Shown here piece after piece: positions 6,535 to 34,030 of a stretch of 38,815 nucleotides of DNA. The position numbers were made by a program, and so were the translations under genes. Every line of letters starts with the position of its first letter. Position 1 is the stretch's first letter. The notes under the pieces are model-generated. The model worked only from the letters and a program-made list of their open reading frames with translations. It made no database searches and had not been told where the DNA came from. This DNA is from an uncultured Bacteroidales bacterium. GTDB taxonomy: Bacteria > Bacteroidota > Bacteroidia > Bacteroidales > Muribaculaceae. Location: the NCBI GenBank assembly GCA_902795825.1, contig CADBML010000087.1:1-38815 (forward strand). Reading direction: 5' to 3'.

Positions 6535-6556
6535 TGTTCGAGTCGGTGTGGGTGGA

Positions 6557-10859: not shown

Positions 10860-12065
10860 TTATTTCTTCGCCTTCTTATCGCGGGGAAGAATCAAGTTGA
10901 GAATCACGCCGACGAGAGCCGACAGACCGATGCCCTGAAGCGAGAACGAACCTATCGACCACACCGCGCCGCCGATTCCGAGCGTCAGCACCACCGAGAT
11001 GATGATGATGTTGCGGGTGATGTTAATGTCCACTTTGTTACGGAGCATATTCTGCACGCCTACGGAAGCGATTGAGCCGAAGAGCAGGAGCATAATGCCG
11101 CCGAGAACAGCCTGGGGAATAGTCGATAGGAAGGCGGAGAGTTTGCCGCAAATTGAGAACACTATCGCTGTGGCTGCGGCTACGCGGATGACTGCCGGGC
11201 TTGTCACGCGGGTGATTTGCATCGCGCCGGTCACTTCGGAATAGGTGGTTACCGGAGGTCCGCCGATAAACGACGCCACGAGGCATGCAAGTCCGTCGCC
11301 AGCCATCGTGCGGTGGAGTCCTGGGTCTTTGGTGAAGTCTTTGTTCGCGACGGCGCTAACCACATAGATGTCGCCTATGTGCTCAACCACGGGCGCTATA
11401 GCCACTGGAATCATGAAGACGAAGGGCTCCCAAGCAAATTCGGGCCAATGGAAATCGGTCAGCGAAGATGGCAGCGACAACCATTGGGCTTCGGCGATGG
11501 GAGTGTAGTCGATTAGCCCGGCGATGGCTGCGGCAATGTAACCCACAATTATTCCGCAAATCACGGGAATGATTTTCAGAGGTCCGCGTCCCGCGGCCAT
11601 AGCGAGAATCGACGCTCCAAGCGACACAATAGCAAGCCACCAACATTCTTTCGCCATATTGACGGCGCTCGGCGAGAGCGACAGACCGATGAGGATAATC
11701 ACCGGACCGATTACGGCGGGAGGGAAGATGCGGTCGAGAAACAGTTTGCCTTGCCACTTGATTAGAATACTGACAATGAAATAAACTAAAGCCACTCCGC
11801 TAAGTCCGGCGAAAGTGGCAGGCAATCCCCACTGGGCAGTGGCCGCGATGATGGGGGCGATGAAAGCGAAACTGCTTCCGAGGAAGACGGGAACTTTACC
11901 TTTTGTTACAAGGTGGAACAGAAATGTGCCGATTCCGGCGGAGAAAAGGGCTGTCGCGGGGTCGATTCCAATCAGCAGTGGGACGAGCACTGTCGCTCCG
12001 AACGCCACAAACAAAAACTGAACGCCGACGATGCCTTTTCTGACAGGACTTAATTCATTTTTCAT
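10860..12065 (-). CDS. uraA: uracil permease (NCS2 family)
   Basis: 401 aa, polytopic. The block FGATVLVPLL...GKVPVFLGSSFAFIAPI closely resembles the E. coli UraA N-terminus. Confidence 0.85.
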   Translation of the reverse strand: MKNELSPVRKGIVGVQFLFVAFGATVLVPLLIGIDPATALFSAGIGTFLFHLVTKGKVPVFLGSSFAFIAPIIAATAQWGLPATFAGLSGVALVYFIVSILIKWQGKLFLDRIFPPAVIGPVIILIGLSLSPSAVNMAKECWWLAIVSLGASILAMAAGRGPLKIIPVICGIIVGYIAAAIAGLIDYTPIAEAQWLSLPSSLTDFHWPEFAWEPFVFMIPVAIAPVVEHIGDIYVVSAVANKDFTKDPGLHRTMAGDGLACLVASFIGGPPVTTYSEVTGAMQITRVTSPAVIRVAAATAIVFSICGKLSAFLSTIPQAVLGGIMLLLFGSIASVGVQNMLRNKVDINITRNIIIISVVLTLGIGGAVWSIGSFSLQGIGLSALVGVILNLILPRDKKAKK

Positions 12066-12089: not shown

Positions 12090-12339
12090 GTGCAAGCCGA
12101 GCGAAATGTCAAGAAAAAACGAAAATTTTTTTCTTGCATTTCCGAGGCGCAGCCTAACTTCGAGGCCGCCCCGCCCTCAACGTTAGTGCAAGCCGAGCGC
12201 AAAACAAAATAAAAGACAAAGTTTTTTTATTTTTTTTGCCGAGGCGCCGCCTAACTTCGAGGTCTTCACGACCTCAACGTTAGTAAAGCCGAGCGAAATG
12301 TCAAGAAAAAACGAAAATTTTTTTCTTGCATTTCCGAGG
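12086..12339. repeat. 2.6 tandem copies of a 96-97 bp hairpin-bearing intergenic repeat
   Basis: Units start with GTTAGTGCAAGCCGAGCG at 12086, 12182 and 12279. Each carries an A/T-rich bulged hairpin followed by CCGAGGCGC.GCCTAACTTCGAGG. Confidence 0.85.
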
Positions 12340-15687: not shown

Positions 15688-15741
15688 CGAATAGTGATAA
15701 ACAATTTAAGTTCCCGAAGTAAATGAAACTCGTTAAACGCA

Positions 15742-15864
15742 CTACCCCTCAGTCACTTGCACTTCGTGCTGCGTGACAGCTCCCCTGCTAGGGGAGCATC
15801 TTGCAAGCGTCTTGCGAAAATCCTCCCCTAGCAGGGGAGGTGGCTCGAAGAGCCGGAGGGGTAG
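15742..15864 (+). repeat. GC-rich REP-like element, copy A (inside the operon)
   Basis: Bounded by CTACCCCTC...GAGGGGTAG and contains hairpins GCTCCCCTGCTAGGGGAGC, CCTCCCCTAGCAGGGGAGG and GGCTCGAAGAGCC. Homologous to 18064-18183, 20720-20965 and 26710-26906. Confidence 0.85.
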
Positions 15865-15974
15865 AACTGTCCGAAAATTTACTATGCCAAAATATGGCAT
15901 TTTGCGCGCAATATAATGATAATAACTTAGTTAAAAACAGAAACTTGAGTAAACAACAAACAACACAATGATAT

Positions 15975-17051
15975 ATGGAAAAACTTGAAAGCATATACAT
16001 CAACGGACTCGACCCGAGTCGCCCGCTTATTATCGCCGGTCCGTGCAGTGCCGAAAGCCGCGAACAGGTGCTTGAAACTGCACGTCTGCTTGCCGGAGGT
16101 GGCATAAAAGTGTTCAGAGCCGGCATTTGGAAACCCCGCACCCGCCCGGGAGGCTTTGAAGGAGTGGGGGAGAAGGGCCTCGAATGGCTCCGTGAAGTCA
16201 AAGAGCGCACCGGCATGCTCGTCACTACCGAGGTGGCTACCCGTCATCATGTCGAGGCGGCATTGTCGGCGGGGGTCGATTTGCTTTGGATTGGCGCACG
16301 CACGTCGGCAAATCCGTTTGCCATGCAGGAGATTGCCGATGCCATCGCCGATATTAACACCGACATCCCCGTGCTTGTCAAAAATCCCGTAAATCCCGAC
16401 ATCGAACTCTGGATTGGCGCACTTCAACGCCTTTACAACGCCGGAATACATCGGTTGGGGGCTATACATCGTGGATTCTCCACCTACGGCCGACATCTCT
16501 ACCGCAACCTCCCGCAATGGCACATCCCCATCGAACTCCGCCGCCGTATTCCCGGGCTGCCCGTAATTGTCGATCCCAGCCACATGGGCGGCCGCCGTGA
16601 ACTGGTGGCTCCTCTCGCCCAACAGGCTTTCGATATGAGTTTCAGTGGTCTAATCATCGAAAGCCACTGCGACCCCGACAGCGCTTTGTCGGACAAAAAT
16701 CAGCAAATCACCCCCGAAGTCTTAAATTTCATATTAAATACTCTTGTCGTGAGAAATTCTAACGAATCTACTGAAAGTCTGACGCTTCTACGCCAGAAAA
16801 TCGATCAAATCGACAACGAACTCGTCGAATTGTTCAACCGCCGGATGGAAGTCAGCCGCGAAATCGGCCAATACAAAAAAGAGCATCGGATGTCGGCGGT
16901 GCAACCCGGACGCTACGGCGACCTTATGGTGAGCCGAATCCGAATGGCCCAAGAAATGGGAATGAGCGAGGAGTTTATGCGTTCCGTGCTCACGGCAATC
17001 CACGATGAGTCGGTGCGTCAGCAAATCGAAGTTATTAACGACCGCAGATAA
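15975..17051 (+). CDS. bifunctional 3-deoxy-7-phosphoheptulonate (DAHP) synthase / chorismate mutase
   Basis: 358 aa. The N-terminal AroA(G)-type DAHP synthase has GPCS.ES, and the C-terminal type II chorismate mutase helix has LRQKIDQIDNELVELFNRRMEVSREIG. Confidence 0.9.
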   Translation: MEKLESIYINGLDPSRPLIIAGPCSAESREQVLETARLLAGGGIKVFRAGIWKPRTRPGGFEGVGEKGLEWLREVKERTGMLVTTEVATRHHVEAALSAGVDLLWIGARTSANPFAMQEIADAIADINTDIPVLVKNPVNPDIELWIGALQRLYNAGIHRLGAIHRGFSTYGRHLYRNLPQWHIPIELRRRIPGLPVIVDPSHMGGRRELVAPLAQQAFDMSFSGLIIESHCDPDSALSDKNQQITPEVLNFILNTLVVRNSNESTESLTLLRQKIDQIDNELVELFNRRMEVSREIGQYKKEHRMSAVQPGRYGDLMVSRIRMAQEMGMSEEFMRSVLTAIHDESVRQQIEVINDRR

Positions 17052-17061
17052 TCCTTTCGCC

Positions 17062-17835
17062 ATGAAGATTTTGATTTTAGGAGCCGGCAAGATGGGCTCG
17101 TTCTTTTGCGACATCCTTTCGTTCACCCACGACGTGGCCGTTTATGACCCTGACCCTCAACGCTTGCGCTTCACGTTCAACTGCCAACGGTTTTCGTCGC
17201 TCGACGAGGTTGATGCCTTCGACCCTGACATGGTCATCAACGCCGCCACGGTGAAATTCACTATTCCGGCTTTCGAGGATGTCATGCCCCACGTCAGGCA
17301 AACGTGCATTCTTTCCGACATCGCTTCGGTGAAAACCGGTCTGCCGGAGTTTTACGCTTCGTGCGGACATCCTTTCGTCAGCACCCACCCCATGTTCGGA
17401 CCGACATTCGCCTCGTTGTCGAACCTCAGTTCGGAGAACGCCATCATCATCAGCGAAAGCGACCATCTAGGCAAAGTGTTTTTCAAGGACCTTTACAACT
17501 CGCTTCATCTTCATATCGAGGAGTACTCATTCGAGCAGCACGACCTCACGATTGCCTATTCGTTGTCGATTCCGTTCGCATCCACGCTCGTTTTCGCTTC
17601 AGTCATGAAGCATCAGGATGCGCCTGGCACGACTTTCAAGCGACACATGGCCATAGCCCGCGGACTGATGGGCGAGGACGACTATCTGCTCAGCGAAATC
17701 CTTTTCAATCCCAATTCGCTCGACCAGTTGTCGCACATTCAGGAGAAACTCACCGAACTTGAAGGCATCATCGCCCGCCGTGACTCCGACGAAATGCGCC
17801 AGTTCCTCTCCCGCGTCCGCGACAATCTAAAGTAA
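17062..17835 (+). CDS. tyrA: prephenate dehydrogenase
   Basis: The start was moved to MKILILGAGKMG (Rossmann GxGxxG). The track's upstream start at 17005 overlaps the previous gene. The protein has THPMFGP-type motifs. Confidence 0.85.
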   Translation: MKILILGAGKMGSFFCDILSFTHDVAVYDPDPQRLRFTFNCQRFSSLDEVDAFDPDMVINAATVKFTIPAFEDVMPHVRQTCILSDIASVKTGLPEFYASCGHPFVSTHPMFGPTFASLSNLSSENAIIISESDHLGKVFFKDLYNSLHLHIEEYSFEQHDLTIAYSLSIPFASTLVFASVMKHQDAPGTTFKRHMAIARGLMGEDDYLLSEILFNPNSLDQLSHIQEKLTELEGIIARRDSDEMRQFLSRVRDNLK

Positions 17836-17860
17836 GCGTCAACTTTTCAAGACGCATAAC

Positions 17861-17897
17861 AATAAAGCGGCTCGAAATTTAGAGCCGCTTTATTGTG
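17861..17897 (+). terminator. intrinsic terminator of the aromatic operon
   Basis: 13-bp stem AATAAAGCGGCTC/GAGCCGCTTTATT followed by a T-rich tail. Confidence 0.75.
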
Positions 17898-17928
17898 GTT
17901 TGTATGCGTTTATAACTGTTTGCGTCGA

Positions 17929-18048
17929 TTATTCTACGACGATTTTCTTGGCAGTGCCGTCGGTGTAGCGGACGATTACGGCTTGGCCGCGTACGGGTTC
18001 AATGAGGCGGACGCCCCTAAGGTCGTAGTAGCAATCGACTTCCTTAGT
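17929..18048 (-). pseudogene. orphan C-terminal fragment of a T9SS-sorted protein
   Basis: The minus strand translates to TKEVDCYYDLRGVRLIEPVRGQAVIVRYTDGTAKKIVVE*, a typical Por_Secre_tail ending. It has no start codon. The frame is closed upstream by the TAG of the repeat terminus at 18064-18066. Confidence 0.45.
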
Positions 18049-18183
18049 CGCCTCGGCAGGATTCTACCCCTCAGTCATCTCGCTGCGCTCGCTGACAGCT
18101 CCCCTAGCAGGGGAGCATTTTCTCAAGCGAACTCCAAAAATCCTCCCCTAGCAGGGGAGGCACCCGATCGGGCGGAGGGGTAG
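18049..18183 (+). repeat. GC-rich REP-like element, copy B
   Basis: Same architecture as copy A (CTACCCCTC at 18064, GAGGGGTAG at 18175). It has an extended left terminus TCGCCTCGGCAGGATT, and the third hairpin is replaced by CCCGATCGGG. Confidence 0.85.
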
Positions 18184-18307
18184 ATTAGACCGAAATTATT
18201 TCACATGTAATAAGCTTTTTGCGCTGCAATAATTTGAAAATCATCTTGTTATAAAACCGAAACTTAAATGCAATTATTAAAAGACTTGTAATTTTTGTTA
18301 AGGAGTC

Positions 18308-18767
18308 ACAAAAACAAAAAAAACACTTTTACTGATTTCAATCTTTTCAAGATAATCGGTTAGTGTTAGTGGCAAATGACGTAAACTTGTTTACGGGCAT
18401 ACGCCACCAACACCAACCGACGCATTATATGCTTTGAAATCAGTAAAAGCAAAAACATAAAAAACGCGTGGGTTATTTTATGGGAAACAATAAAGGCAAT
18501 TTATGAAAATCCCCGATAGGGATATTATACAACTTCGCATCAGTTCATGACCGGAGTGAACGTTATTATTTGGATAGGGAACGGGGAAAATTTATGTTCC
18601 GTCGTCGCGGCTTTTTTTTGTTTTTGCTTGGAAGTGCGTTAGCCAAAGGCAGTTCTGCGACATTCGGGCAAGGACTGTTATGCCCCAGCATAAACAGAAC
18701 TTGAACGAATGGCTCAGAATGGGCTCATAGAGCCAGCGGCACTTCCAAGTGTTTTTATTGTTTTTGT
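18308..18767. mobile_element. TIR-bounded non-coding structured element (MITE-like), copy 1
   Basis: Termini ACAAAAACAAAAAAAACACT / AGTGTTTTTATTGTTTTTGT are 19/20 complementary. It holds a 124-nt compound hairpin (18326-18449) and a right-hand domain closed by CTTGGAAGTGC/GCACTTCCAAG (18627-18637 / 18739-18749). Homologous to 27081-27555. Confidence 0.7.
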
Positions 18768-18859
18768 TTCTTCGGCGACGCGGGTTTATGCGCAAGTGAT
18801 CAAAAAATTATTGAAATTTATGTTTATTTCCTCGATGATGTGGGGCTTGGGGGAGGGAT

Positions 18860-18890
18860 AAGAAAAAGCCTTCCTTGAGGGGAAGGCTTA
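18860..18890 (-). terminator. rpsO intrinsic terminator
   Basis: Stem AAGCCTTCC/GGAAGGCTT with a 6-nt loop, followed on the minus strand by TTTTTCT. Confidence 0.7.
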
Positions 18891-18917: not shown

Positions 18918-19193
18918 TTACTTGCGGATACCGAGCTCTTTTTGGGCAATGATGGCGCGGTAGCGGTTGATATCGACTTTGATGAGATAGTCGAGCAAAC
19001 GGCGACGCTTACCAACAAGCTGCTTCAGAGCTCTCGCTGTGCTATAATCTTTGTGATTTGACTTCAAATGCTGAGTCAAATGAGCGATACGGATGGAGAA
19101 AAGTGCTATCTGCGCTTCAGGTGAGCCAGTATCAGTTTTGCTTTTACCGTATTTCTCGAAGATTTTCTCTTTGTCTTCAGAAGTGAGATACAT
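18918..19193 (-). CDS. rpsO: 30S ribosomal protein S15
   Basis: 91 aa, MYLTSEDKEKIFEKYGKSKTDTGSPEAQIALFSIRIAHLTQHLK... The start was trimmed from the track's 19241 to the conserved MYLT start. Confidence 0.95.
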   Translation of the reverse strand: MYLTSEDKEKIFEKYGKSKTDTGSPEAQIALFSIRIAHLTQHLKSNHKDYSTARALKQLVGKRRRLLDYLIKVDINRYRAIIAQKELGIRK

Positions 19194-19238
19194 TCTAAAT
19201 AGCGTTAATTGGTTAGTAATATTTTGGATTTGCGGGTG

Positions 19239-19246
19239 CAAAGGTA
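19239..19246 (-). promoter_or_regulatory. -7 box (TACCTTTG on the minus strand) for rpsO
   Basis: Exact TAnnTTTG match about 45 nt upstream of the rpsO ATG. Confidence 0.5.
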
Positions 19247-20719: not shown

Positions 20720-20965
20720 CCACCCCTCAGTCACTTGCCCTTCGTGCTGCGTGACAGCTCTCACGCTAAGGGAGCATTTCTCGTTGGCGACTTGCGAAAA
20801 TCCTCCCCTAGCAGGGGTGAATCATGCGAGCCGAGAGCAGAATGTCAAGCCTGCGAAAATCCTCCCCTAGCAGGGGAGGTGTCGGCGAAGCCGACGGAGG
20901 GGTAGAACCCTGCCGAGGCGATGACGATGTGAAGCAAGACGTGGCTCGTAGAGCCGGAGGGGTAG
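20720..20965 (+). repeat. GC-rich REP-like element, copy C (composite, about two units)
   Basis: Begins CCACCCCTCAGTCACTTGC and contains two CCTCCCCTAGCAGGGG modules. It has two right ends GAGGGGTAGAAC (20897 and 20957), with hairpins GTCGGCGAAGCCGAC and GGCTCGTAGAGCC. Confidence 0.85.
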
Positions 20966-21069
20966 AACAATTCGGAAAATTCATGACTAAATTCACCATA
21001 TTATTTCGCATCATATTGCATATTAATTGATTATAAAACAGAAACTTAAATTTATATTCCGTTCGAACT

Positions 21070-21774
21070 ATGGCAGTAATTCTGAATATCGACACATCCA
21101 CGACTGTCTGTTCGGTGGCTTTGACTGCCGACGGGCTGGTGTTGTTTCACCTTGAGGACACTCGCGGGCGCAACCATGCGGCTCTGCTCAGCGGCTTTGT
21201 GAAGCAGTGTCTCGACTATTTGGCCGGCAAAGAGTTGCGACTTGATGCCGTGGCTGTGGGAATAGGTCCGGGAAGCTACACGGGTCTTCGCATAGGTCTG
21301 TCGGAGGCGAAAGGGCTCGCCTATGCCCTCGATGTGCCATTGATAGGGGTCTCCACGTTGATGACCATGGCTGTGTCGGTGATGTTTTCCCGCGAGGTTG
21401 ACGAGACGGCTTTGCTCGTTCCGATGATCGACGCGCGCCGCATGGAGGTGTATGCCGCGGTTTACGACTATGCCCTAAACGAAGTTATGCCCCCCACGCC
21501 GGTCATTCTCGACGCCGACTCCTTCGGCGGCTATGCCGGCCGGCGGCTTCTGCTTTTCGGCGACGGCAGCGTCAAGGCCAAGGATGTGATTTTGCATGAA
21601 AACGTGGAGTTTGTCGATGGCGTTGCCCCGATGGCGGTGGATATGCTGGCGTTGTCGGAACGCGCCTACCGTAATGGCGATTTTCTCGACTTGGCATATT
21701 CCATGCCGGCTTATTTGAAAGATTATCAGGCGGTGAAGCCGCGCAATCCGCTCGACTCGCTTCTCGAAGGATAA
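21070..21774 (+). CDS. tsaB: tRNA t6A37 threonylcarbamoyltransferase complex subunit TsaB
   Basis: 234 aa. ILNIDTSTTVCSVAL...GPGSYTGLRIG is the typical YeaZ/TsaB pattern. Confidence 0.9.
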   Translation: MAVILNIDTSTTVCSVALTADGLVLFHLEDTRGRNHAALLSGFVKQCLDYLAGKELRLDAVAVGIGPGSYTGLRIGLSEAKGLAYALDVPLIGVSTLMTMAVSVMFSREVDETALLVPMIDARRMEVYAAVYDYALNEVMPPTPVILDADSFGGYAGRRLLLFGDGSVKAKDVILHENVEFVDGVAPMAVDMLALSERAYRNGDFLDLAYSMPAYLKDYQAVKPRNPLDSLLEG

Positions 21775-21775
21775 A

Positions 21776-21811
21776 CAAAGGGGCGGCTCAACAAGAGCCG
21801 CCCCTTTGTTT
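21776..21811. terminator. bidirectional intrinsic terminator (tsaB / trxA)
   Basis: Perfect 14-bp stem CAAAGGGGCGGCTC/GAGCCGCCCCTTTG with a 5-nt loop, flanked by an A-run and a T-run. Confidence 0.8.
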
Positions 21812-21830
21812 GCCCGAGGCAAATAGGGCT

Positions 21831-22230: not shown

Positions 22231-25200
22231 CTAATTGCTGATGGGAATGATGGTGTATTCCAAATCGTTGGCATTGAGCACTTGGAGCAGTTTTTTCGAT
22301 TTTTTCAGTCGTCGGGATGAGCGCATTTTCAGCGAGCGTTGAAGCTGGGGATGCCAGATGTCGAAGGTGAGAGGCATAGCGTCGGCTTCATCGTCGGCTG
22401 AGATTAGCGGCGAGATCTGGTCGGTGATGACGTTGTCAACCTTTTCGATGGGCACACGAATGTCGATGGCGAAATGCCCTGCGCACTCTTCGAGGAGCGA
22501 CACCCGCGTGACATCAAGGCGTGGGGTGGAGGTGGCGAAGCGCCGTCGGTAGCTCATTTCCACCTTTACGGGCGTACCTTTCACACCGAATTTGCCGTAG
22601 TCGTAGAATTGCTTGTCGAAAAGCCTCACATCGAAGCTTCCCTCGAAATCCTCGACTTTCAACACACCGAAGTTGTTGCCCTTCGACGTTTGTTTGACGA
22701 TGTAGTCGGTGACGATACCTGCGAAGGTGAACGTCGAGCCTTCGGCCACGATGCTCTCGGCCGGAAGGGCTTTCATCTGTTGTGTGGAGCTGTTGCACCC
22801 GTAGGTGATATCGAAGTAGAATTTGTCGAGCGGGTGGGCCGAGAGGTACATCCCGACGAGTTCGCGTTCACGGTCGAGGCGTTCGAGGTCGGTCCACATT
22901 TTTGCCGGCGCAATGGCGGGTCGGGCGGCGGTGTTGATGAAGTCGTCGTCGTCGCCGAAGAGCGACATTTCTTGCGAACTTTTATGATTTTGGAACTGTT
23001 GCCCGTAGCGGATAAGCTGCTCTGAGAGAGTCTCGCCGCGATGGTTTTGCTCGAAGAAGTCCTCGCGCTTAATAGCGGGCGCGAAACTGTCGAATGCTCC
23101 CGAAAGGGCGAGCGCTTCGATAAGACGGCGGTTTAGCACCGAACTTGGCACCCGCTCGAAGAAGTTGAAAATGTCGGTGAACGGACCTTCGGCATCGCGT
23201 GTGCCGATGATGTTGTTGATGACGTTGACCCCGACGCCTTTGATGGCAGCCAGTCCGAAACGGATATCGCCGTGGGCGTTGACGCCGAAGCGGGTGAAAC
23301 TTTCGTTGATGTCGGGACCGAGCACGTTGATGTTCATCGTCTTGCACTCGTCCATAAAGAGCGACAGTTTATCGGTGTTGTCGAGGTTACGGCTCAGAAC
23401 GGCTGCCATATATTCGGCAGGATAGTTGGCTTTCAGGTAGGCTGTCTGGAATGCCACCCAGCTGTAGCAAGTGGCGTGGCTCTTGTTGAAAGCGTAGGAA
23501 GCGAATTTCTCCCATTCGCCCCAAATTTTTTCAAGGGCCTTTGCGTCGTGGCCGCGTGCTATTCCACCTTCGAGGAATTTTGCTTTTAAGGCCTGCATTT
23601 TGTCGTGGAGTTTCTTGCCCATGGCCTTGCGGAGGTTGTCGCTTTCGCCGCGAGTGAAACCTGCGAGGAGACGAGAGAGGAGCATCACTTGCTCTTGATA
23701 GACGGTGATGCCGTAAGTGTCCTTGAGATACGACTCCATGATGGGGATGTCGTATTCGATTTTTTCGCGGCCCTGTTTGCGGTCGATGAAGTCGGGAATT
23801 TTGTCCATCGGCCCCGGGCGGTAGAGGGCATTCATGGCAATGAGGTCCTCGAATGTCTGTGGGTGGAGGTTGCGGAGGTGGGTCTGCATTCCGGCCGACT
23901 CGAATTGGAATGTGCCTGTCGTGCGGCCTTCGCAGTAGAGCTGATAAGTTTTCTTGTCGTCGAGCGGTATATTGTCGATGTCAACGTCAATACCCCTTGA
24001 CTTTTTGATGTTCGCGATAGCCTCTTTGATTATCGACAGCGTTTTCAGCCCGAGAAAGTCCATTTTGATGAGACCGGTCTGCTCAATGACGGAGCCTTCG
24101 TATTGGGTGACGAGCATTTTCTCGCCGTCCTTGTCGGTGGCGGTCGAAACGGGCACTTGGTCGGTGATGGGGTAGCGGCCGATGATCACTCCGCAGGCAT
24201 GGACGCCGGTGCTTCTCACGTTGCCTTCGAGCTGACCGGCATATTTGAGCGTTGACCTGACGAGGGGGTCCTTGCTCTCAAGCTCGGCCTGGAACTGAGG
24301 CAGGTACTTGTAGCAGTTGGCGAGAGTCTGCTTGAGCTCTTTTCCCTTGTTGTTAGGGTCTTCCGGCATATGGGCGGGAATGAGTTTGGTGAGCCTGTTG
24401 CTTTCCGCCAGCGATAGTTGCTCCACGCGCGCCACGTCCTTGATGGCCATTTTCGATGCCATGGTGCCGTAGGTGATGATGTGTGCCACTTTGTCGGCAC
24501 CGTATTTGTCGGTGACATACTTGAGCACATCGGCGCGGCCGTCGTCGTCGAAGTCGATATCGATATCGGGCAGGGAGATACGGTCGGGGTTGAGGAAGCG
24601 CTCGAAAAGGAGATCGTATTTTATGGGGTCGATTTGGGTGATGCCGAGGCAGTAAGCCACAGCCGAGCCGGCAGCCGAACCGCGGCCCGGGCCCACCGAT
24701 ACGCCAAGCCTGCGCGCGGCGGCGATAAAGTCCTGCACAATTAGGAAGTAACCGGGGAAACCCATGTTCTTGATGGTTTCCAACTCGAAGTCGAGCCGTT
24801 CGCGCTGCTCGTCGCTAAGCTCCGGCCATCGTTTTTTTGCGCCCTCGTAGGTGAGGTAACGAAGGTAGTCGTCGTTGTCGATGAAGCCTTCGGGCAGGGG
24901 GAAGTTGGGGAGGATGGGATCGTGGTCGATGGAGTAAATTTCAGTCTTGTCGAGAATCTCAAGGGTGTTCGACAAGGCTTCGGGAATGTCGGCAAACACG
25001 CGGTTCATCTCTTCCTGGGTTTTAAACCATTCCTGCTTGGTGTAGAGCATACGGTTTTCGTCGGTCACGAATTTGTTGGTCGATACGCAGATAAGCCGGT
25101 CGTGAGCCTCAGCGTCGTCCTCGTTGACGAAGTGGACGTCGTTGGTACAGATGAGTTTGATGCCGTGTTTGCGTGCCATCTCAATGAGCACGGGGTTCAC

Positions 25201-25899
25201 CTGCTGCTGGCGTTCGTAGGTGTCGTGGGCGGCTCGCTCGACGGTGGCCTTGTGGCGTTGTAGCTCAAGGTAGTAGTCATCGCCGAAAGTATCCTTCCAC
25301 CATAGTATTTGCTTCTCGGCTTCCTGAATTTGCCCATCGGCAATGAGGCGCGGAATTTCACCACCCAGACAAGCCGAACAGACAATCAGTCCCTCGCGAT
25401 GTGCGGCAAGGGCGGCCTTGTCGGTGCGCGGGTGGGAGTAGAAGCCTTCTGTCCACGCTTGCGACACGACTTTTATGAGGTTGTGGTAGCCTGTCTCGTT
25501 TTTTGCCAGCACGATGAGGTGGCGTCCGGTGTCGCGTTTATCGACATGCTCGTGGAGCGACTTGTCGGCCACATACATCTCGCACCCGAATATGGGCTTG
25601 AAGATTTTCGTCTCAAGCTCGGCAATCTCCGCGGCGGCGGCTTCGGCTCCGGCGGTGTCGCCAGATTTCTCGGCTTCTTCTTTGCGCTTTTTCGCATCTT
25701 TGATGGCCGCTAAGGTGCCGCCGTTTTTCTTGTTGACATAGTCGTGGAGTTCCTTGATACCGAACATATTGCCGTGGTCGGTCAGGGCCATTCCGCGCAT
25801 GCCGTCGGCGATGGCTTTATCGACCAACCCGCTAATCGACGCCTGTCCGTCGAGAATGGAATATTGCGAGTGTACGTGTAGATGAACGAATGGTGTCAT
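22231..25899 (-). CDS. dnaE: DNA polymerase III alpha subunit
   Basis: The PHP domain starts at MTPFVHLHVHSQYSILDG, and the polymerase core and OB-fold tail follow. I trimmed the start from the track's 25998 to the ATG at 25899. Confidence 0.95.
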   Translation of the reverse strand: MTPFVHLHVHSQYSILDGQASISGLVDKAIADGMRGMALTDHGNMFGIKELHDYVNKKNGGTLAAIKDAKKRKEEAEKSGDTAGAEAAAAEIAELETKIFKPIFGCEMYVADKSLHEHVDKRDTGRHLIVLAKNETGYHNLIKVVSQAWTEGFYSHPRTDKAALAAHREGLIVCSACLGGEIPRLIADGQIQEAEKQILWWKDTFGDDYYLELQRHKATVERAAHDTYERQQQVNPVLIEMARKHGIKLICTNDVHFVNEDDAEAHDRLICVSTNKFVTDENRMLYTKQEWFKTQEEMNRVFADIPEALSNTLEILDKTEIYSIDHDPILPNFPLPEGFIDNDDYLRYLTYEGAKKRWPELSDEQRERLDFELETIKNMGFPGYFLIVQDFIAAARRLGVSVGPGRGSAAGSAVAYCLGITQIDPIKYDLLFERFLNPDRISLPDIDIDFDDDGRADVLKYVTDKYGADKVAHIITYGTMASKMAIKDVARVEQLSLAESNRLTKLIPAHMPEDPNNKGKELKQTLANCYKYLPQFQAELESKDPLVRSTLKYAGQLEGNVRSTGVHACGVIIGRYPITDQVPVSTATDKDGEKMLVTQYEGSVIEQTGLIKMDFLGLKTLSIIKEAIANIKKSRGIDVDIDNIPLDDKKTYQLYCEGRTTGTFQFESAGMQTHLRNLHPQTFEDLIAMNALYRPGPMDKIPDFIDRKQGREKIEYDIPIMESYLKDTYGITVYQEQVMLLSRLLAGFTRGESDNLRKAMGKKLHDKMQALKAKFLEGGIARGHDAKALEKIWGEWEKFASYAFNKSHATCYSWVAFQTAYLKANYPAEYMAAVLSRNLDNTDKLSLFMDECKTMNINVLGPDINESFTRFGVNAHGDIRFGLAAIKGVGVNVINNIIGTRDAEGPFTDIFNFFERVPSSVLNRRLIEALALSGAFDSFAPAIKREDFFEQNHRGETLSEQLIRYGQQFQNHKSSQEMSLFGDDDDFINTAARPAIAPAKMWTDLERLDRERELVGMYLSAHPLDKFYFDITYGCNSSTQQMKALPAESIVAEGSTFTFAGIVTDYIVKQTSKGNNFGVLKVEDFEGSFDVRLFDKQFYDYGKFGVKGTPVKVEMSYRRRFATSTPRLDVTRVSLLEECAGHFAIDIRVPIEKVDNVITDQISPLISADDEADAMPLTFDIWHPQLQRSLKMRSSRRLKKSKKLLQVLNANDLEYTIIPISN

Positions 25900-25965
25900 A
25901 TCGTTGTTTCCGTCGGATTGTTTTAGGTGAAAAATGGGTGGCGCGAACGGGCGCTTCCCGAATTG

Positions 25966-25973
25966 CAAAGTTA
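25966..25973 (-). promoter_or_regulatory. -7 box (TAACTTTG on the minus strand) for dnaE-trxA
   Basis: Exact TAnnTTTG match about 67 nt upstream of the dnaE ATG. Confidence 0.5.
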
Positions 25974-26196
25974 CGAAAACTCCCAAACTTTTCCTCACAC
26001 TTTCCCAAAATAGTTATTAACATTCCACCACCCTTTGCCAGTTGAATCTGCAGACGAAACTCAATATCTGAAGATTTCTGAAATTTTGACGTTGTTGCGA
26101 TAAAAAACGCTTTTGTTTTGTATATTTTCCAATAATGTTTATTTTTTGTGAGAATAAATTGGAAATCCGGATAATATCATTCAATACAAATTGATT

Positions 26197-26669: not shown

Positions 26670-26709
26670 TAACGCAAGTTTCTAAAGTGAATGAAACTTG
26701 TTCAATTCA

Positions 26710-26906
26710 CTACCCCTCAGTTGTTTTGTGACATGTTCATGTTTCCGCCAAATCGGTATCGCCTCGGCAGGATTCTACCCATCCGGCTCTTTGAGCCACG
26801 GTTTGCTTCGCACCCAATAGGCATCGCCTCGGCTGGGTTCTACCCCTCCGTCGGCTTCGCCGACATCTCCCCTGCTAGGGGAGGATTTTCGCAAGCTTGA
26901 CATTCT
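26710..26906 (-). repeat. GC-rich REP-like element, copy D (inverted orientation)
   Basis: Its reverse complement is AGAATGTCAAGCTTGCGAAAATCCTCCCCTAGCAGGGGAG..GTCGGCGAAGCCGACGGAGGGGTAGAACC.AGCCGAGGCGATG...GGCTCAAAGAGCCGGATGGGTAGAAT... This is colinear with 20838-20965. Confidence 0.85.
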
Positions 26907-26955
26907 ACACTAAGCTCGCACGATTCTTCCCACTATTATAAATTCATGTCAACTC

Positions 26956-26995: not shown

Positions 26996-27080
26996 AAGTT
27001 TGTTATTTCACATAAATTATTTTTGAATTAAATTATATGGATGATTTGGTTCATTGGTTAATTCCTGTGTTTTCATTTTG

Positions 27081-27555
27081 ACAAAAACAATAAAAACACT
27101 TTTACTGATTTCAATCTTTTCAAGACAATCGGTTAGTGTTGATGGCGGATGCCCGTAAACAAGTTTACGTCATTTACCACCAACACCAACCGACGCATTA
27201 TATGCGTTGAAATCAGTAAAAGCAAAAACCAAAAAAACGGTTTGGGTTGTGTTATGGGATACAGTAAAAGCGCAGGTCTGATGACTATTTCCATACCGAC
27301 AATGATGATTTGGTGAAGTGTAAAGCTGTTCCTAATCTGTGTGAACGTTATTATTATGGACAAGGGAACAGAGAATATGTATATGTTGCGACGTCGCGGC
27401 TTTTTTTTGTTTTTGCTTGGAAGTGCTGCCAGCCAAAGACTGTTCTGCGACATTCGGGCAAGGGCTGTTATGCTCGCATAAACAGAACTTGAGCGAATGG
27501 CTCAGAATGGGCTCATAGAGCCAGCTGCACTTCCAAGTGTTTTTATTGTTTTTGT
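27081..27555. mobile_element. TIR-bounded non-coding structured element (MITE-like), copy 2
   Basis: Termini 27081-27101 and 27535-27555 are 21/21 complementary. It has the same compound hairpin (27099-27222) and right-hand domain (27416-27426 / 27527-27537) as copy 1, and lies in direct orientation relative to copy 1. Confidence 0.7.
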
Positions 27556-27580
27556 TTCTTTAGCGCGGTGTTTGTCGCTG

Positions 27581-28699
27581 TTATTTCTCTTTTTCGATTT
27601 GCTTGATGAGGGCGACGTTGAACCGCTCGATGTCGGTCAGAACGACAGCCTTGCCCGACTGTTTATACCACGGCTGGGCATTGAAGTAGTCTTGGACTTC
27701 GGATTCGGCGAAATTGTCGCCATGGCGTGCATAGATTTCACAACGCATCATCTTGAGAACCTCCTTCGGCAAAAGGCGAAGGATGGAGTGGGTGAGCGGC
27801 ATGGCTGACGCTACTCCGTAGATGCCGGGGATTTCGTCATACGGCGTTTCGACGATTTTGAGCATGGCGTTTTCTCCAAAACGCGGGTTGTGGTCAACAA
27901 ACTTTTGATCGCGAATTGTTTTCACGTCAAGACCGCCCAAGATAGGGGTGACGCGGATGGTCATCGGACCCATAAGCGCTCCGGCTCCGCCGCCACCGGG
28001 CATTTTGCCGTATTTGGGACTGCTGGGGTCGCCGTGGCTGACACGACCTTCGCCATATTCGATGTCGAACGATTTGTGGTCGTCGTTGATGGTTAAGCGG
28101 TAATGCGCACCGGGGTCGCCTGCCCACTTCATGTCGGAATAGTGCTCCATTTTCGGCCCGAACAGTGCATGTTCACCATTTTCGAGGACGTAGTTGCCGG
28201 CGAGAACTCTGCGAAGGAACACATAGCGCCAGTCGGATTGGATATCATTTTGGCCGATTTTGTAGAATGCTTTAATGGGTGTGCCGGCAGCGTTTCGTTC
28301 TACGAGCATTATGTAGTTCCCAAGCCGTTCAACTGAATATTTCGCGCCTTTGATGCTTTTCGAAACCACTTGTCGGCCGACCACTTTGTTGTCAGCAATG
28401 GGGTTGCCCAATTTTCCGTCGTACTCACCGTATATGTTAAGCGCGAGTCGGTGGTCAATCTCATCGTAAACAGTTTGGAATGCCTGAACTCCGCAAGTCC
28501 ATGTTATGACGGAATCCAAAAGATGTTTCTTGGTGGAAAGGATTGCGCGCTTCGTGTTGCGGACGGCTTGGTCGGATTTGACCGATTCGATGAACGCCTC
28601 ATTCGTTTCGTCGGTATTGTATCGGCTGCGTGAATTGGCGTCGGGAGCGATTGCCGAGGCCGCTATTAACACTGCAATTGAAAAAATTAGTCGGTTCAT
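27581..28699 (-). CDS. secreted YARHG-domain protein
   Basis: 372 aa with a signal peptide. The C-terminal motif MMRCEIYARHGDNF...YF is the YARHG domain signature. Confidence 0.8.
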   Translation of the reverse strand: MNRLIFSIAVLIAASAIAPDANSRSRYNTDETNEAFIESVKSDQAVRNTKRAILSTKKHLLDSVITWTCGVQAFQTVYDEIDHRLALNIYGEYDGKLGNPIADNKVVGRQVVSKSIKGAKYSVERLGNYIMLVERNAAGTPIKAFYKIGQNDIQSDWRYVFLRRVLAGNYVLENGEHALFGPKMEHYSDMKWAGDPGAHYRLTINDDHKSFDIEYGEGRVSHGDPSSPKYGKMPGGGGAGALMGPMTIRVTPILGGLDVKTIRDQKFVDHNPRFGENAMLKIVETPYDEIPGIYGVASAMPLTHSILRLLPKEVLKMMRCEIYARHGDNFAESEVQDYFNAQPWYKQSGKAVVLTDIERFNVALIKQIEKEK

Positions 28700-32598: not shown

Positions 32599-32892
32599 TT
32601 ATTTCTTTTCTTTTTTCTTTTTGAGTTGGCGGTCGATGGCATCGAAGCAAAGATCGACGGCTTCTTCGAAGGTGTCGGCGGTTTTCTCGGCGAGGATGTC
32701 TTCGTGTTGTGGCACACTGACGCGGATGAGTGCGTTTTTGTTGAGTGCCGTTTCGGGTTTGACAACTTTCAGGGTTACATCGACATCGGTGATGTCGGCG
32801 TTGTGACGCGCGATGCGTTCTGCCTTTTTCTGGATGAACGATTCAAGCTTTTCTGCTGCGTCGAAGTGAATGGCTTTAATCTTAATGTCCAT
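32599..32892 (-). CDS. hpf: ribosome hibernation promoting factor / RaiA family
   Basis: 97 aa, MDIKIKAIHFDAAEKLESFIQKKAERI... This is a short HPF of the sigma-54-modulation-protein family. Confidence 0.9.
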   Translation of the reverse strand: MDIKIKAIHFDAAEKLESFIQKKAERIARHNADITDVDVTLKVVKPETALNKNALIRVSVPQHEDILAEKTADTFEEAVDLCFDAIDRQLKKKKEKK

Positions 32893-33796: not shown

Positions 33797-33849
33797 GATA
33801 GTAGCATTTAAGCTGGAAGTCGGCCTGCCGACACTTCGTTTTCTTTTTT

Positions 33850-33857
33850 CAAAATTA
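33850..33857 (-). promoter_or_regulatory. -7 box (TAATTTTG on the minus strand) for xer-hpf
   Basis: Exact TAnnTTTG match. A second identical box lies at 33878-33885. Confidence 0.4.
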
Positions 33858-33987
33858 CTCAAGTTTTTCGGTAAATACAAAATTATTCCGAAAAAATTCG
33901 CCTTATTTTTTTGAAAAAAATGAAAAAAATGATTGGTGACGCGTCGCTGCGGTGAACCGACCTTAAGAGGCGGCTCTTTTTCCGGCG

Positions 33988-34030
33988 GAAAAAAACTGAT
34001 GCGGATTGTGGCAGAGCACAACCCGCATCA
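33988..34030 (-). terminator. rpsU intrinsic terminator
   Basis: Imperfect 14-bp stem TGATGCGGATTGTG/CACAACCCGCATCA, followed on the minus strand by GTTTTTTT. Confidence 0.8.

What the first reader, a model, noticed from the sequence alone, without database searches (positions are those of the whole stretch)
18308..18767. Two direct copies of a ~460-475 bp non-coding element bounded by 20-21 bp terminal inverted repeats
18308-18767 and 27081-27555 are the same element in the same orientation, 8.8 kb apart. Both are bounded by ACAAAAACAATAAAAACACT(T)...(A)AGTGTTTTTATTGTTTTTGT, which is 21/21 complementary in copy 2 and 19/20 in copy 1. By eye, the left ~140 nt and right ~210 nt are about 90-95% identical between copies. 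A central ~70-80 nt (18486-18555 vs 27260-27340) does not align. Nothing coding is conserved. A 1-nt length difference (GCGTTAGCCAAAGGCAG vs GCTGCCAGCCAAAGACTG) throws the only shared ORF-like stretch out of frame on both strands. I see no transposase in the window and no obvious target-site duplication. Both right flanks continue TTCTT, so the true end may lie slightly further out. This fits either a MITE-like non-autonomous element or a large structured RNA gene family. I cannot match it to any family I know.
Basis: seen in the sequence. Interest (0 to 1): 0.7.

Follow-up and report, generated by a model that had tools for sequence, protein, structure and literature searches.

The report
Decayed nuclease-gene cassettes, MITE-like relics
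The two repeats are real: they are gutted copies of an ~840-bp hairpin-rich cassette, repeated in gut and rumen Bacteroidales, that in intact form carries a small nuclease gene of unknown function, so they are mobile-element relics rather than RNA genes.

Summary
Copies at 18308-18767 and 27081-27555 are homologous, direct, and bounded by a 20/21 and a 21/21 inverted repeat. Their flanks are unrelated.

The interpretation needs correcting in three ways.
- The "TIR" is an A-rich motif (M, ACAAAAACAAWAAAAACAC) that occurs four times per element: M+ / ~123-nt hairpin arm / M+ / centre / M- / ~123-nt branched arm / M-.
- The non-aligning centre is debris of a 147-aa GxxExxY (PF13366, PD-(D/E)XK) nuclease gene. 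That gene is intact in an 836-bp relative (L038). The two window copies lost it by different internal deletions.
- Homology between independent copies runs ~35 nt beyond the left repeat and ~40 nt beyond the right one.

The same architecture surrounds several diverged 147-aa GxxExxY genes at unrelated housekeeping loci. The arm sequences are unrelated but M is nearly the same. A gene-less sister subfamily has outer 23-bp TIRs and 8-bp target duplications in 5 of 5 complete copies, so the family does transpose.

Both window copies are present in every strain contig that reaches their sites and absent from a sister species. There is no Rfam hit, no transposase partner was found, and I found no prior description. 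Verdict: non-autonomous relics of an undescribed cassette family. The structured-RNA-gene reading is not supported.

The parts
18308..18326 (+).
18327..18449 (+). Copy 1, arm 1: 123-nt imperfect hairpin (TTTTACTGATTTC...GAAATCAGTAAAAG). Its inner 63 nt (18357-18419) is found in both orientations among strains.
18450..18465 (+). Copy 1, M2: inner left copy of motif M (CAAAAACATAAAAAAC)
18466..18610 (+). Copy 1, centre: what is left after a ~390-nt deletion of the GxxExxY gene. 18507-18599 encodes the last ~31 residues (69% identical to the L038 protein); the stop codon is lost.
18611..18626 (-). Copy 1, M3: inner right copy of M in inverted orientation; pairs with M2
18627..18749 (+). Copy 1, arm 3: 123-nt branched hairpin (CTTGGAAGTG...CACTTCCAAG)
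18749..18767 (-).
18768..18804 (+). Copy 1, right extension (TTCTTCGGCGACGCGGGTTTATGCGCAAGTGATC...). It is shared with independent copies L032, L099 and L038. Its reverse complement resembles the outer TIR of subfamily 2.
27046..27080 (+). Copy 2, left extension (GGTTCATTGGTTAATTCCTGTGTTTTCATTTTG). It is shared with L032, L053 and L038. It looks like a degenerate arm-3 end plus an M4-like motif.
27081..27099 (+). Copy 2, M1
27100..27222 (+). Copy 2, arm 1 hairpin (inner hairpin 27130-27192)
27223..27238 (+). Copy 2, M2
27239..27399 (+). Copy 2, centre: GxxExxY gene debris left by two deletions. 27287-27327 is the catalytic-motif fragment (DDLVKCKAV). 27328-27391 is the C-terminal fragment. A small terminator-like hairpin at 27385-27400 follows.
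27400..27415 (-). Copy 2, M3
27416..27537 (+). Copy 2, arm 3 branched hairpin
27537..27555 (-). Copy 2, M4
27556..27578 (+). Copy 2, weakly conserved and probably truncated right extension. It abuts the stop codon of the YARHG-domain gene (27581-28699, minus strand).

Best explanation
The two elements are immobile, gene-less relics of a Bacteroidales family of small transposable cassettes.

Architecture (shown). The intact unit is about 0.8 kb. It consists of an A-rich 16-19-nt motif M, a ~120-nt hairpin, M again, a 147-aa GxxExxY (PD-(D/E)XK, Cas4/lambda-exonuclease-like) nuclease gene, then inverted M, a second ~120-nt hairpin and inverted M. In a single strand, M1 pairs with M4 and M2 pairs with M3. 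This closes a four-way junction with the gene in the loop.

Origin of the window copies (shown). Each lost the gene by its own internal deletions and kept the repeats and hairpins. They sit in spacers that a sister species lacks, and they are present in every strain contig of this species that reaches their sites.

Mobility (partly shown, partly inferred). Gene-less relatives carry outer 23-bp TIRs and 8-bp target duplications, which shows transposition. From that signature I infer a DDE transposase supplied in trans. From memory, a GG-start TIR plus an 8-bp AT-rich duplication is the ISL3-type signature.

Role of M and the nuclease (inferred). M keeps its sequence while the arms keep only their shape, so M is probably a protein-binding site. 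The nuclease is either cargo or an accessory factor; this is unresolved.

Present-day effect (inferred). The window copies probably do nothing beyond acting as strong hairpins with U-tracts, that is terminators or insulators, at the 3' ends of rpsO/tyrA and the YARHG gene.
For: Four-fold M motif with constant 138-142-nt spacing in every subfamily.

Parent gene:
- The full-length relative L038 (836 bp) carries an ORF that hits TIGR04256 GxxExxY (E 2.9e-28) and PF13366 (E 5e-28).
- Window remnants and their different deletion maps.
- L103 is a frameshifted full-length copy and L099 keeps a longer remnant.

Same architecture with unrelated arms around diverged 147-157-aa homologues, at recG|coaD, Fic|?, hyp|surE, upxY-like|epimerase and gyrB|parA.

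Evidence of copying to new sites:
- An identical protein (P0006) occurs at two different loci.
- The same deletion derivative (~403 bp) occurs at two loci in one MAG.
- Several copies per MAG, often at contig ends.
- Most homologues sit on ~0.9-1.2-kb contigs, consistent with collapsed repeats.

Subfamily 2 matches the window copies only over M. It has 23-bp outer TIRs and 8-bp TSDs in 5 of 5 complete copies, 4 perfect and one 7/8.

Insertion status:
- A sister species with 84-90% identical flanking genes has 66 nt where the window has 1037 nt, and holds no copy.
- Copies are 40% G+C against 52% for the window.

Protein:
- Catalytic E...D...ExK residues are invariant across homologues.
- AlphaFold model pLDDT 93; best structural neighbours are Cas4 SSO0001 and lambda-exonuclease-type nucleases.

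No Rfam match.
Against: - No target-site duplication and no sharp termini could be defined for the window's own subfamily. Candidate direct repeats are no better than chance.
- No transposase with matching ends was found in any locus held. The only transposase seen, an IS4-family element in some strains, has unrelated ends.
- No presence/absence polymorphism exists among strains of the window's species, so there is no sign of recent movement here.
- The four-M layout is not universal. One lineage (L120) has a variant motif and lacks the inverted 3' module.
- More distant GxxExxY genes (31-32% identity) in Prevotella nigrescens and Bacteroidota (Bernardetia) lack room for the modules.
- Arm 3 shows compensatory changes and an excess of sense-strand G-U over A-C pairs. 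This hints at some RNA-level or single-strand constraint that a purely DNA-level model does not predict.
Confidence: 0.75

Rival explanations
1. A family of large structured non-coding RNA genes. The four-way junction (M1:M4, arm 1, M2:M3, arm 3) would be the functional RNA, and the copies would be paralogous RNA genes.
For: - Fold z-scores are -9 to -12.
- In arm 3, 13 of 49 pairs show compensatory changes across 9 sequences. Sense-strand G-U cells outnumber A-C cells 31:5 (union of pairs) or 16:4 (pairs predicted on both strands).
- The alignment folds better on the + strand (-55.8 vs -43.3 kcal/mol).
Against: - The centre is nuclease-gene debris that differs between the copies.
- Arms share no sequence between subfamilies, whereas the unstructured-looking A-rich M motif is what is conserved.
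- Arm 1 and subfamily 2 show no strand bias, and whole-element energies favour neither strand consistently.
- Arm 1 is deleted in strain L058 and the element is IS-interrupted in four strain contigs.
- The arm-1 core is inverted between strains, which swaps its G-U pairs to the other strand.
- No Rfam hit, even at E up to 10.
- No Bacteroidetes-type promoter (TTTG / TAnnTTTG) was evident by eye.
Confidence: 0.07
2. A self-mobilising nuclease cassette of a new kind. The GxxExxY nuclease would itself recognise the junction or hairpins formed by its own flanks and drive copying. The window copies would be its non-autonomous derivatives.
For: - In the loci examined, the 147-157-aa subfamily sits inside structured flanks, even when the arm sequences are completely different.
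- Catalytic residues are invariant.
- The fold is that of Cas4/lambda-exonuclease-type nucleases that act on DNA ends and single strands.
- No transposase partner was found.
Against: - 8-bp target duplications with GG-start TIRs in the gene-less subfamily are the signature of a DDE transposase, not of a lone PD-(D/E)XK nuclease.
- Gene-less copies outnumber gene-bearing ones in the MAGs scanned.
- GxxExxY genes elsewhere lack these flanks.
- There is no biochemical evidence.
Confidence: 0.12
3. A plain segmental duplication of an intergenic stretch within this genome.
For: There are only two copies in the 38.8-kb window, and they are in direct orientation.
Against: - The flanks are unrelated, at 55-58% identity, the level of the non-homologous centre.
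- Related copies lie at other loci in other Bacteroidales MAGs and metagenomes.
- The two copies carry different deletions of the parental gene.
Confidence: 0.02
4. An invertible DNA switch (inverton) of the kind common in Bacteroidales: a promoter-bearing segment flipped between its inverted repeats by a recombinase.
For: - 20-21-bp inverted repeats bound a 460-475-bp segment.
- A tyrosine recombinase gene lies in the window at 32882-34021.
- A small internal segment does occur in both orientations.
Against: - The whole element has the same orientation relative to its flanking genes in all strain contigs at both loci.
- The recombinase gene is 5 kb away and is absent next to related copies.
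- The segment that flips is only 63 nt. It is itself a hairpin, which is more typical of template switching at a quasi-palindrome (inference).
- There is no downstream gene in the right position to be switched.
Confidence: 0.02

Closest known systems
Bacterial MITEs (for example Correia/NEMIS elements of Neisseria, and the MITEs catalogued in bulk for Bacteroidota in PMC11602168)
   Same: - Short, non-coding, AT-rich, inverted-repeat-bounded and strongly folding.
- Multi-copy in intergenic DNA and non-autonomous.
- The sister subfamily has TIRs plus a fixed-length target duplication.
   Different: - The conspicuous repeat is present four times in a nested arrangement.
- It flanks two ~120-nt hairpin arms with constant spacing.
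- The parental full-length form carries a PD-(D/E)XK nuclease gene, not a transposase gene.
- No TSD is visible for the window's own copies.
- No matching autonomous IS was found.
REPIN/RAYT systems (palindromic repeat doublets associated with a single-copy domesticated transposase). Comparison made from memory.
   Same: Hairpin-forming repeats are dispersed in intergenic DNA and are associated with one small nuclease-type gene that is itself flanked by the repeats.
   Different: - RAYTs are HUH/Y1 enzymes, whereas this protein is PD-(D/E)XK.
- Here the gene itself is multi-copy and decays.
- The elements are about ten times larger.
- An 8-bp TSD occurs in relatives.
GxxExxY protein family (TIGR04256 / Pfam PF13366 PDDEXK_3)
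   Same: - The parental ORF is a clear member.
- The family's function is listed as unknown, with a mixed phylogeny suggesting many transfers (PMC3424549).
   Different: - This is one 147-aa subfamily: 13 of 4056 50%-identity clusters reach E <= 1e-30.
- The structured M-arm-M flanks were not seen around two distant family members.
ISL3-family insertion sequences (TIRs starting GG, 8-bp AT-rich target duplication). Recalled from memory as a lead only.
   Same: Subfamily 2 ends with GGCACTTATTTACC.../...GGTATATAGTTTCC and makes 8-bp AT-rich duplications.
   Different: - No ISL3 transposase, or any transposase with these ends, was found.
- ISfinder was not available.
Transposon ends with several subterminal transposase sites (Tn7, Mu, Tn402-type). 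Analogy from memory.
   Same: A conserved ~19-nt motif is repeated in direct orientation within each half and inverted between halves.
   Different: - Those elements end in TG...CA and carry their own transposition genes.
- Here the sites are 140 nt apart and separated by hairpins.
Cas4 / lambda exonuclease / RecB-type nucleases
   Same: The predicted fold of the encoded protein is closest to these: Foldseek E 5e-4 to Cas4 SSO0001 and 5e-3 to LHK-Exo. It has an E-D-ExK active site.
   Different: - TM-score is only ~0.5 and sequence identity 16-23%.
- The protein is much smaller, at 147 aa.
- The Cas4 iron-sulfur cluster cysteines were not checked.
- There is no CRISPR context.

Membership tests
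MITE (miniature inverted-repeat transposable element) | Small (roughly <600 bp) and without a complete coding sequence | tested here: met
   The copies are 460 and 475 bp. Only gene fragments remain.
MITE | Terminal inverted repeats | tested here: met
   M1/M4 are 20/21 and 21/21 complementary. However, homology to other copies extends beyond them, so they may be subterminal.
MITE | Target-site duplication of fixed length | tested here: inconclusive
   None could be found for the window's subfamily. Sister subfamily 2 has an 8-bp TSD in 5 of 5 complete copies.
MITE | Several copies at unrelated sites, with insertion polymorphism between genomes | tested here: met
   Copies lie at different loci in the window, in Muribaculaceae MAG RGIG7968 and in metagenome Ga0129307. 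The rpsO-tyrA spacer of a sister species holds no copy. There is no polymorphism among strains of the window's own species.
MITE | A related autonomous IS with the same ends and a transposase | tested here: not met
   The full-length relative encodes a GxxExxY nuclease, not a transposase. No larger element with the outer TIRs exists in any held locus. Whole genomes and ISfinder could not be searched.
Any Rfam RNA family | Covariance-model score at or above the gathering threshold | tested here: not met
   There is no hit over either copy at gathering threshold. The best sub-threshold hits are generic long-hairpin miRNA models at 22 bits against thresholds of 144-245.
GxxExxY protein (TIGR04256 / PF13366), for the parental gene | Profile match above the curated cut-off | tested here: met
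   The L038 ORF scores 98.6 bits against a cut-off of 35 and 98.2 against 22. The window itself holds only fragments: tblastn E 1e-8 for 18507-18599.
PD-(D/E)XK nuclease superfamily | Conserved acidic residues plus the (D/E)xK motif on an alpha-beta-beta-beta-alpha-beta core | tested here: met
   E43, D83, E93 and K95 are invariant in 30 homologues. The model has pLDDT 93 and nuclease-fold neighbours. In copy 2 the motif has decayed to VKCK.
Bacteroidales inverton (invertible promoter) | The whole IR-bounded segment is found in both orientations, with a nearby recombinase | tested here: not met
   Orientation is the same in all strain contigs. Only a 63-nt inner hairpin flips.
Segmental duplication | Homology continues into flanking sequence, and copies are confined to one genome | tested here: not met
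   Flank identity is 55-58%. Copies exist elsewhere.
ISL3-mobilised element | A DDE_Tnp_ISL3 transposase recognising the same TIR | not testable with these tools
   Only the TIR/TSD signature is seen.

The most novel reading that the evidence does not exclude
The 147-aa GxxExxY nuclease and its four-M, two-hairpin flanks form a self-contained new class of selfish element. In this reading a Cas4-like structure-specific nuclease recognises the four-way junction (or the M sites) formed by its own ends in single-stranded DNA or RNA, and this drives copying or maintenance. The element would then shed MITE-like derivatives such as the two in this window. That would give the large, uncharacterised PF13366 family its first function.
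Probability: 0.13. Interest if true: 0.85.

Novelty: new variant of a known kind. Interest (0 to 1): 0.55.

Why it matters
GxxExxY/PDDEXK_3 proteins form a large family: 4056 clusters at 50% identity match at E <= 0.001. The PD-(D/E)XK survey lists their function as unknown (PMC3424549).

This result ties one abundant gut and rumen Bacteroidales subfamily to a defined DNA architecture and to transposition. That yields concrete substrates to test: the M motif, the hairpins and the four-way junction.

There are also practical consequences. These cassettes break metagenome assemblies: many copies lie at contig ends or on ~1-kb contigs. They expand spacers between core genes. They also place strong hairpins with U-tracts at gene ends, which may affect termination and annotation in Bacteroidales MAGs.

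For this window specifically, the finding is explained as relics with probably little function.

Tried and rejected
- **Rfam.** I scanned at gathering threshold and at E <= 10 over both copies. Only generic hairpin and miRNA noise appeared, plus a weak RT-3 hit at E 0.19.
- **Strand-of-function test.**
  - A-C mismatches in arm 1 first suggested a minus-strand RNA. I dropped this when another strain showed the same hairpin inverted at the same locus.
  - Energies for 16 elements favoured neither strand consistently.
- **Small ORF next to the element.** A possible minus-strand ORF (MKTKEF...) lies in the left extension. I rejected it because the start codon is absent in L032 (read by eye).
- **GxxExxY ORF next to subfamily 2 in L030.** I first took it for a cassette gene. 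Its last ~20 residues are read-through into the element's right end.
- **IS4 element inside copy 1 in some strains.** I tested it as a possible partner. Its TIR is unrelated.
- **TSD search for the window's subfamily.**
  - The candidates are AAATTATT (18193/18805), TGTTATTTC (27001/27579) and AAAATATA (L032).
  - They are not adjacent to consistent termini, are no better than chance, and are absent in L038 and L099.
- **Empty site.** An exact empty site could not be aligned because the spacer has diverged between species. Only a size contrast of 66 vs 1037 nt could be shown.
- **Database searches that found nothing useful.**
  - Viral contigs, plasmids and phages gave no related DNA.
  - PHROGs gave nothing and PADLOC only a marginal generic PD-DExK hit.
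  - PDB sequence searches gave nothing.
- **Literature.** Searches for GxxExxY, PDDEXK_3, the motif strings and Bacteroidales MITEs found no description of this cassette.
Full report
**1. The observation**

The window is chromosomal DNA of a Bacteroidales bacterium and carries housekeeping genes:
- pheA, an aminotransferase gene, DAHP synthase/chorismate mutase
- tyrA at 17005-17835 (+)
- rpsO at 18918-19241 (-)
- bamD, tsaB
- dnaE at 22231-25998 (-)
- a YARHG-domain gene at 27581-28699 (-)

The closest named S15 protein (98% identity) is from a Muribaculaceae MAG.

Identity is 96% over the first 48 nt, 88% over the left 178 nt and 93% over the last 175 nt. The centre (55%) and the flanks (55-58%) are unrelated.

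The terminal repeat ACAAAAACAA[A/T]AAAAACACTT is 21/21 complementary in copy 2 and 20/21 in copy 1. It has four exact matches in the window against 0.00 expected from shuffles. Both copies are 40% G+C in a 52% window.

**2. Anatomy**

The terminal repeat is not only terminal. Its core (CAAAAACAAWAAAAAC, called M here) occurs four times per element: twice in the left half in one orientation, and twice in the right half inverted.

| | M1 | M2 | M3 | M4 |
|---|---|---|---|---|
| Copy 1 | 18309 | 18450 | 18611 | 18751 |
| Copy 2 | 27082 | 27223 | 27400 | 27539 |

- M1 and M2 enclose a 123-nt imperfect hairpin, arm 1 (18327-18449; 27100-27222).
- M3 and M4 enclose a ~123-nt branched hairpin, arm 3 (18627-18749; 27416-27537).
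- Start-to-start spacing M1->M2 and M3->M4 is 138-142 nt in every relative examined.

Folded as a single strand, M1 pairs with M4 and M2 pairs with M3. This gives a four-way junction with the variable centre in the loop of the M2:M3 stem. Energies are 9-12 standard deviations below shuffles on both strands.

**3. What the centre is**

A scan of one genome per species with the 21-mer returned 52 loci. About half were chance hits in unrelated phyla. The rest were Bacteroidales MAGs.

In Muribaculaceae MAG RGIG7968, one copy (L038:2415-3250) is 836 bp long. Its extra 370 bp is an intact 147-codon ORF in the element's + orientation. The ORF hits TIGR04256 'GxxExxY protein' (E 2.9e-28, 98.6 bits against a cut-off of 35) and Pfam PF13366 PDDEXK_3 (E 5e-28).

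Aligning the window copies to this full-length element gives two different deletion maps:
- Copy 1 keeps positions 1-190 and 583-836. This is one ~390-nt deletion.
- Copy 2 keeps 1-192, a 41-nt island (476-516) and 610-836. These are two deletions.

Accordingly:
- 18507-18599 reads GILYNFASVHDRSERYYLDRERGKFMF, the C-terminus. tblastn gives 69% identity and E 1e-8.
- One frame of copy 2 reads ...YFHTDNDDLVKCKAV|PNLCERYY..., the catalytic ExK region (now KCK) joined to the C-terminus.

This explains why the central 70-80 nt do not align: each copy retains a different piece of the same dead gene. Other decay states exist:
- L103, full length but frameshifted
- L099, with a 75-residue remnant
- a ~403-bp form that keeps only the first 17 nt of the ORF

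**4. The family**

A protein search with the ORF found 803 proteins at E <= 1e-10.
- Almost all are 147 aa.
- Those with names are labelled Bacteroidaceae or Prevotella.
- Most lie on 0.8-1.3-kb contigs, as expected for a repeat that assemblers collapse.

An exhaustive search of 1.84 billion cluster representatives found 4056 family members at E <= 0.001. Only 13 reached E <= 1e-30. The 147-aa type is therefore one tight subfamily, and many of its top hits are truncated ORFs.

Genomic contexts of diverged members show the gene in spacers between unrelated core genes:

| Member | Left neighbour | Right neighbour |
|---|---|---|
| P0006 | recG | coaD |
| P0006, second site | Fic | not seen |
| P0024 | hypothetical | surE |
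| P0010 | upxY-like NusG | epimerase |
| P0098 | gyrB | parA |
| P0117 | response regulator | not seen |

In most of these the flanks repeat the plan M - ~120-nt hairpin - M - ORF - inverted M - ~120-nt hairpin - inverted M. The arm sequences share nothing with the window's arms.
- In L090 the M2:M3 stem has acquired the same small palindrome on both sides, so pairing is preserved.
- In L127 arm 3 is the reverse complement of arm 1, so the two modules form one long inverted repeat.
- One lineage (L120) departs from the plan. It has a variant motif and a second 5' module in direct orientation instead of the 3' module.
- Distant GxxExxY genes (31-32% identity) in Prevotella nigrescens and Bernardetia have too little flanking DNA for such modules.

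The architecture therefore belongs to this subfamily, not to GxxExxY genes in general. M keeps its sequence across lineages whose arms are unrelated. That argues M is read by sequence, most simply as a protein-binding site, while the arms are kept only as hairpins (inference).

**5. Evidence for mobility**

- **Several copies per genome.** This holds even when counting only copies with an exact 21-mer: five contigs in MAG CALGBV01, four in CALBNP01 and three each in JAKSMU01 and JAFZPB01. Many sit at contig ends.
- **Recent duplication to new sites.** The identical protein P0006 is found at two different loci. The same ~403-bp deletion derivative is found at two loci of one MAG.
- **A gene-less sister subfamily ('S2') that clearly transposes.**
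  - S2 copies are about 335-470 bp. Members include L004, L026, L030, L039 and L054.
  - S2 shares with the window copies only the M motif and the layout.
  - S2 has an outer inverted repeat, GGCACTTATTTACCTGTTGGCAC ... GTGCCATCAGGTATATAGTTTCC. It lies 2 nt outside M1 and ~50 nt outside M4.
  - All five complete S2 copies are flanked by an 8-bp direct repeat: AAAAAATT, TTTTTTTT, ATAATTAA, TTTTGAAA and TAAAATAA/GAAAATAA.
  - This is the footprint of transposase-mediated insertion. From memory, GG-start TIRs with 8-bp AT-rich duplications are typical of the ISL3 family. That is a lead, not a test.
- **The window's subfamily also extends beyond M.**
  - Independent copies share ~35 nt to the left of M1. 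This stretch looks like a degenerate arm-3 end plus an M4-like motif.
  - They share ~40 nt to the right of M4 (TTCTTCGGCGACACAGGTTTATGCAAGTGATCC). Its reverse complement resembles the S2 outer TIR.
  - I could not define the termini or a TSD. The candidate direct repeats are no better than chance.
- **No partner transposase.** None with matching ends is present in any locus held.

**6. History at the two window sites**

Look-ups of the exact S15 protein returned contigs from many strains of the same species.

Copy 1 is present, whole or cut off by a contig end, in all ten. Copy 2 is present at 98.7-100% identity in all six contigs that reach its site. Both always have the same orientation relative to the flanking genes. 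There is therefore no insertion polymorphism within the species, and no whole-element inversion.

The copies do tolerate damage:
- In L058, arm 1 and one M have been lost by recombination between M1 and M2.
- In four contigs an IS4-family element with unrelated TIRs interrupts copy 1 near position 170.
- In L063 the sequence at the copy-1 locus is closer to copy 2.

A sister species has flanking genes 84-90% identical at the nucleotide level and S15 98% identical. It has 66 nt where the window has 1037 nt (17826-18862), and it contains no copy. Copy 1 and the neighbouring repeats were therefore inserted after the two species split.

**7. RNA or DNA?**

I looked for strand asymmetry. G-U pairs are tolerated only on the strand that folds.

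- Arm 3 of the window's subfamily (9 sequences, including the diverged L011 and L006):
  - 13 of 49 pairs show compensatory changes.
  - Sense-strand G-U cells outnumber A-C cells 31:5, or 16:4 for pairs predicted on both strands.
  - Many of these cells share ancestry, so the counts overstate independent events.
- Arm 1 shows no bias: 20:33 over the union of pairs and 7:6 over the intersection.
- S2 shows no bias either.
- Whole-element energies for 16 elements favour the sense strand 12 times and the antisense strand 4 times, by small margins.

The inner 63 nt of arm 1, mismatches included, is present in opposite orientations at the same locus in different strains (window, L056 and L082 versus L059, L088 and L089). 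This swaps its wobble pairs to the other strand.

I conclude that hairpin potential is maintained, but the data do not show that an RNA is the selected product.

On the sense strand, M3 and M4 supply U-tracts after hairpins. A small terminator-like hairpin plus M3 follows the ORF remnant at 27385-27400. The 3' module therefore probably terminates the cassette's own transcript. The 5' module would do the same for antisense read-through (inference).

**8. The protein**

- E43, D83, E93 and K95 are invariant in 30 homologues. Together they form a PD-(D/E)XK active site.
- An AlphaFold2 model has mean pLDDT 93.4.
- Its nearest solved structures are:
  - Cas4 SSO0001 (E 5e-4, TM 0.50)
  - the lambda-exonuclease-type LHK-Exo (E 5e-3)
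  - a putative restriction-endonuclease-domain protein
- No PDB sequence relative was found. PHROGs gave no hit and PADLOC only a marginal generic PD-DExK hit.
- The published survey of the superfamily lists PDDEXK_3 as 'unknown', with mixed clades suggesting multiple transfers (PMC3424549).

**9. Comparison with what is known, and novelty**

The window copies behave like MITEs. They are small, AT-rich, bounded by inverted repeats, strongly folding, intergenic and non-autonomous. They differ from described MITEs in three ways:
- a four-fold nested motif with constant spacing around two large hairpins
- descent from a cassette whose gene is a PD-(D/E)XK nuclease rather than a transposase
- for this subfamily, no visible TSD

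No Rfam family matches. Full-text searches for GxxExxY, PDDEXK_3, the motif strings and Bacteroidales MITEs found no description.

A bulk catalogue of 81,380 Bacteroidota MITEs exists (PMC11602168). It may contain members of this family without describing them. ISfinder could not be queried.

I rate the finding a new variant of a known kind. The more radical reading is that the nuclease and its junction-forming flanks are a self-contained new type of element. The data do not exclude it, but the DDE-like footprint of the sister subfamily disfavours it.

**10. Verdict**

- The MITE-like interpretation is supported with corrections.
- The RNA-gene alternative is not supported.
- The window copies are relics of modest biological consequence.
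- The family they belong to links a large nuclease family of unknown function to a defined, testable DNA architecture.

Noticed in passing
window 15708-15946, 18011-18265, 20722-21047 (+) and 26676-26931 (inverted): A second intergenic repeat family of ~240-330 nt, built around CTCCCCTAGCAGGGGAG palindromes (D2, D5, D6, D10, D13, D14, D19, I1-I10). Two of its four copies lie next to the two elements studied here. The right end of the 18011-18265 copy forms an inverted repeat with the right extension of copy 1.
   Followed up: partly
window 18357-18419 (and 27130-27192); L059, L088, L089: The inner 63-nt hairpin of arm 1 occurs in opposite orientations at the same locus in different strains of one species, mismatched stem positions included. 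This is probably template switching or recombination at a quasi-palindrome rather than a recombinase-driven switch.
   Followed up: partly
L055/L057/L083/L084 (same site as window ~18478); L058: In some strains an IS4-family element (504-aa DDE_Tnp_1, TIR CCCATCAAATCCCACAGATTCACGTAA) interrupts copy 1 near element position 170. In another strain, arm 1 plus one M repeat has been deleted between M1 and M2.
   Followed up: yes
window 12094-12339: Three tandem 96-nt units, the first and third sharing an identical 54-nt core, lie next to the start of the xanthine/uracil permease gene at 10860-12065 (-) (D3/D7). One unit holds a weak 3-mismatch match to motif M.
   Followed up: no
window 21730-21814 (+): The only Rfam hit at gathering threshold is STnc250, an enterobacterial Hfq-binding sRNA (43.9 bits against 42). 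It sits on the 3' end and terminator of tsaB, and most of the score comes from a terminator hairpin. It is probably a false positive in a Bacteroidales genome.
   Followed up: no
window 32882-34021 (-): A tyrosine recombinase gene (Phage_integrase plus an N-terminal SAM-like domain) lies 5 kb from copy 2. No link to the elements was seen.
   Followed up: no
L031:3493-3960 and L039 (reverse strand, ~6290-6757): These variants of the gene-less subfamily keep the outer TIR, M1 and M4. Their interior is replaced by copies of another Bacteroidales repeat (CGTCATTGCGAGCGCAGCGAAGCAA...), so the same chassis carries different cargo.
   Followed up: partly
L090-L094 (P0010 copies): One gene-bearing cassette sits between an upxY-like NusG-family antiterminator gene and the first sugar-epimerase gene of what looks like a capsule locus. 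It is therefore inside a long leader that must be transcribed through.
   Followed up: no
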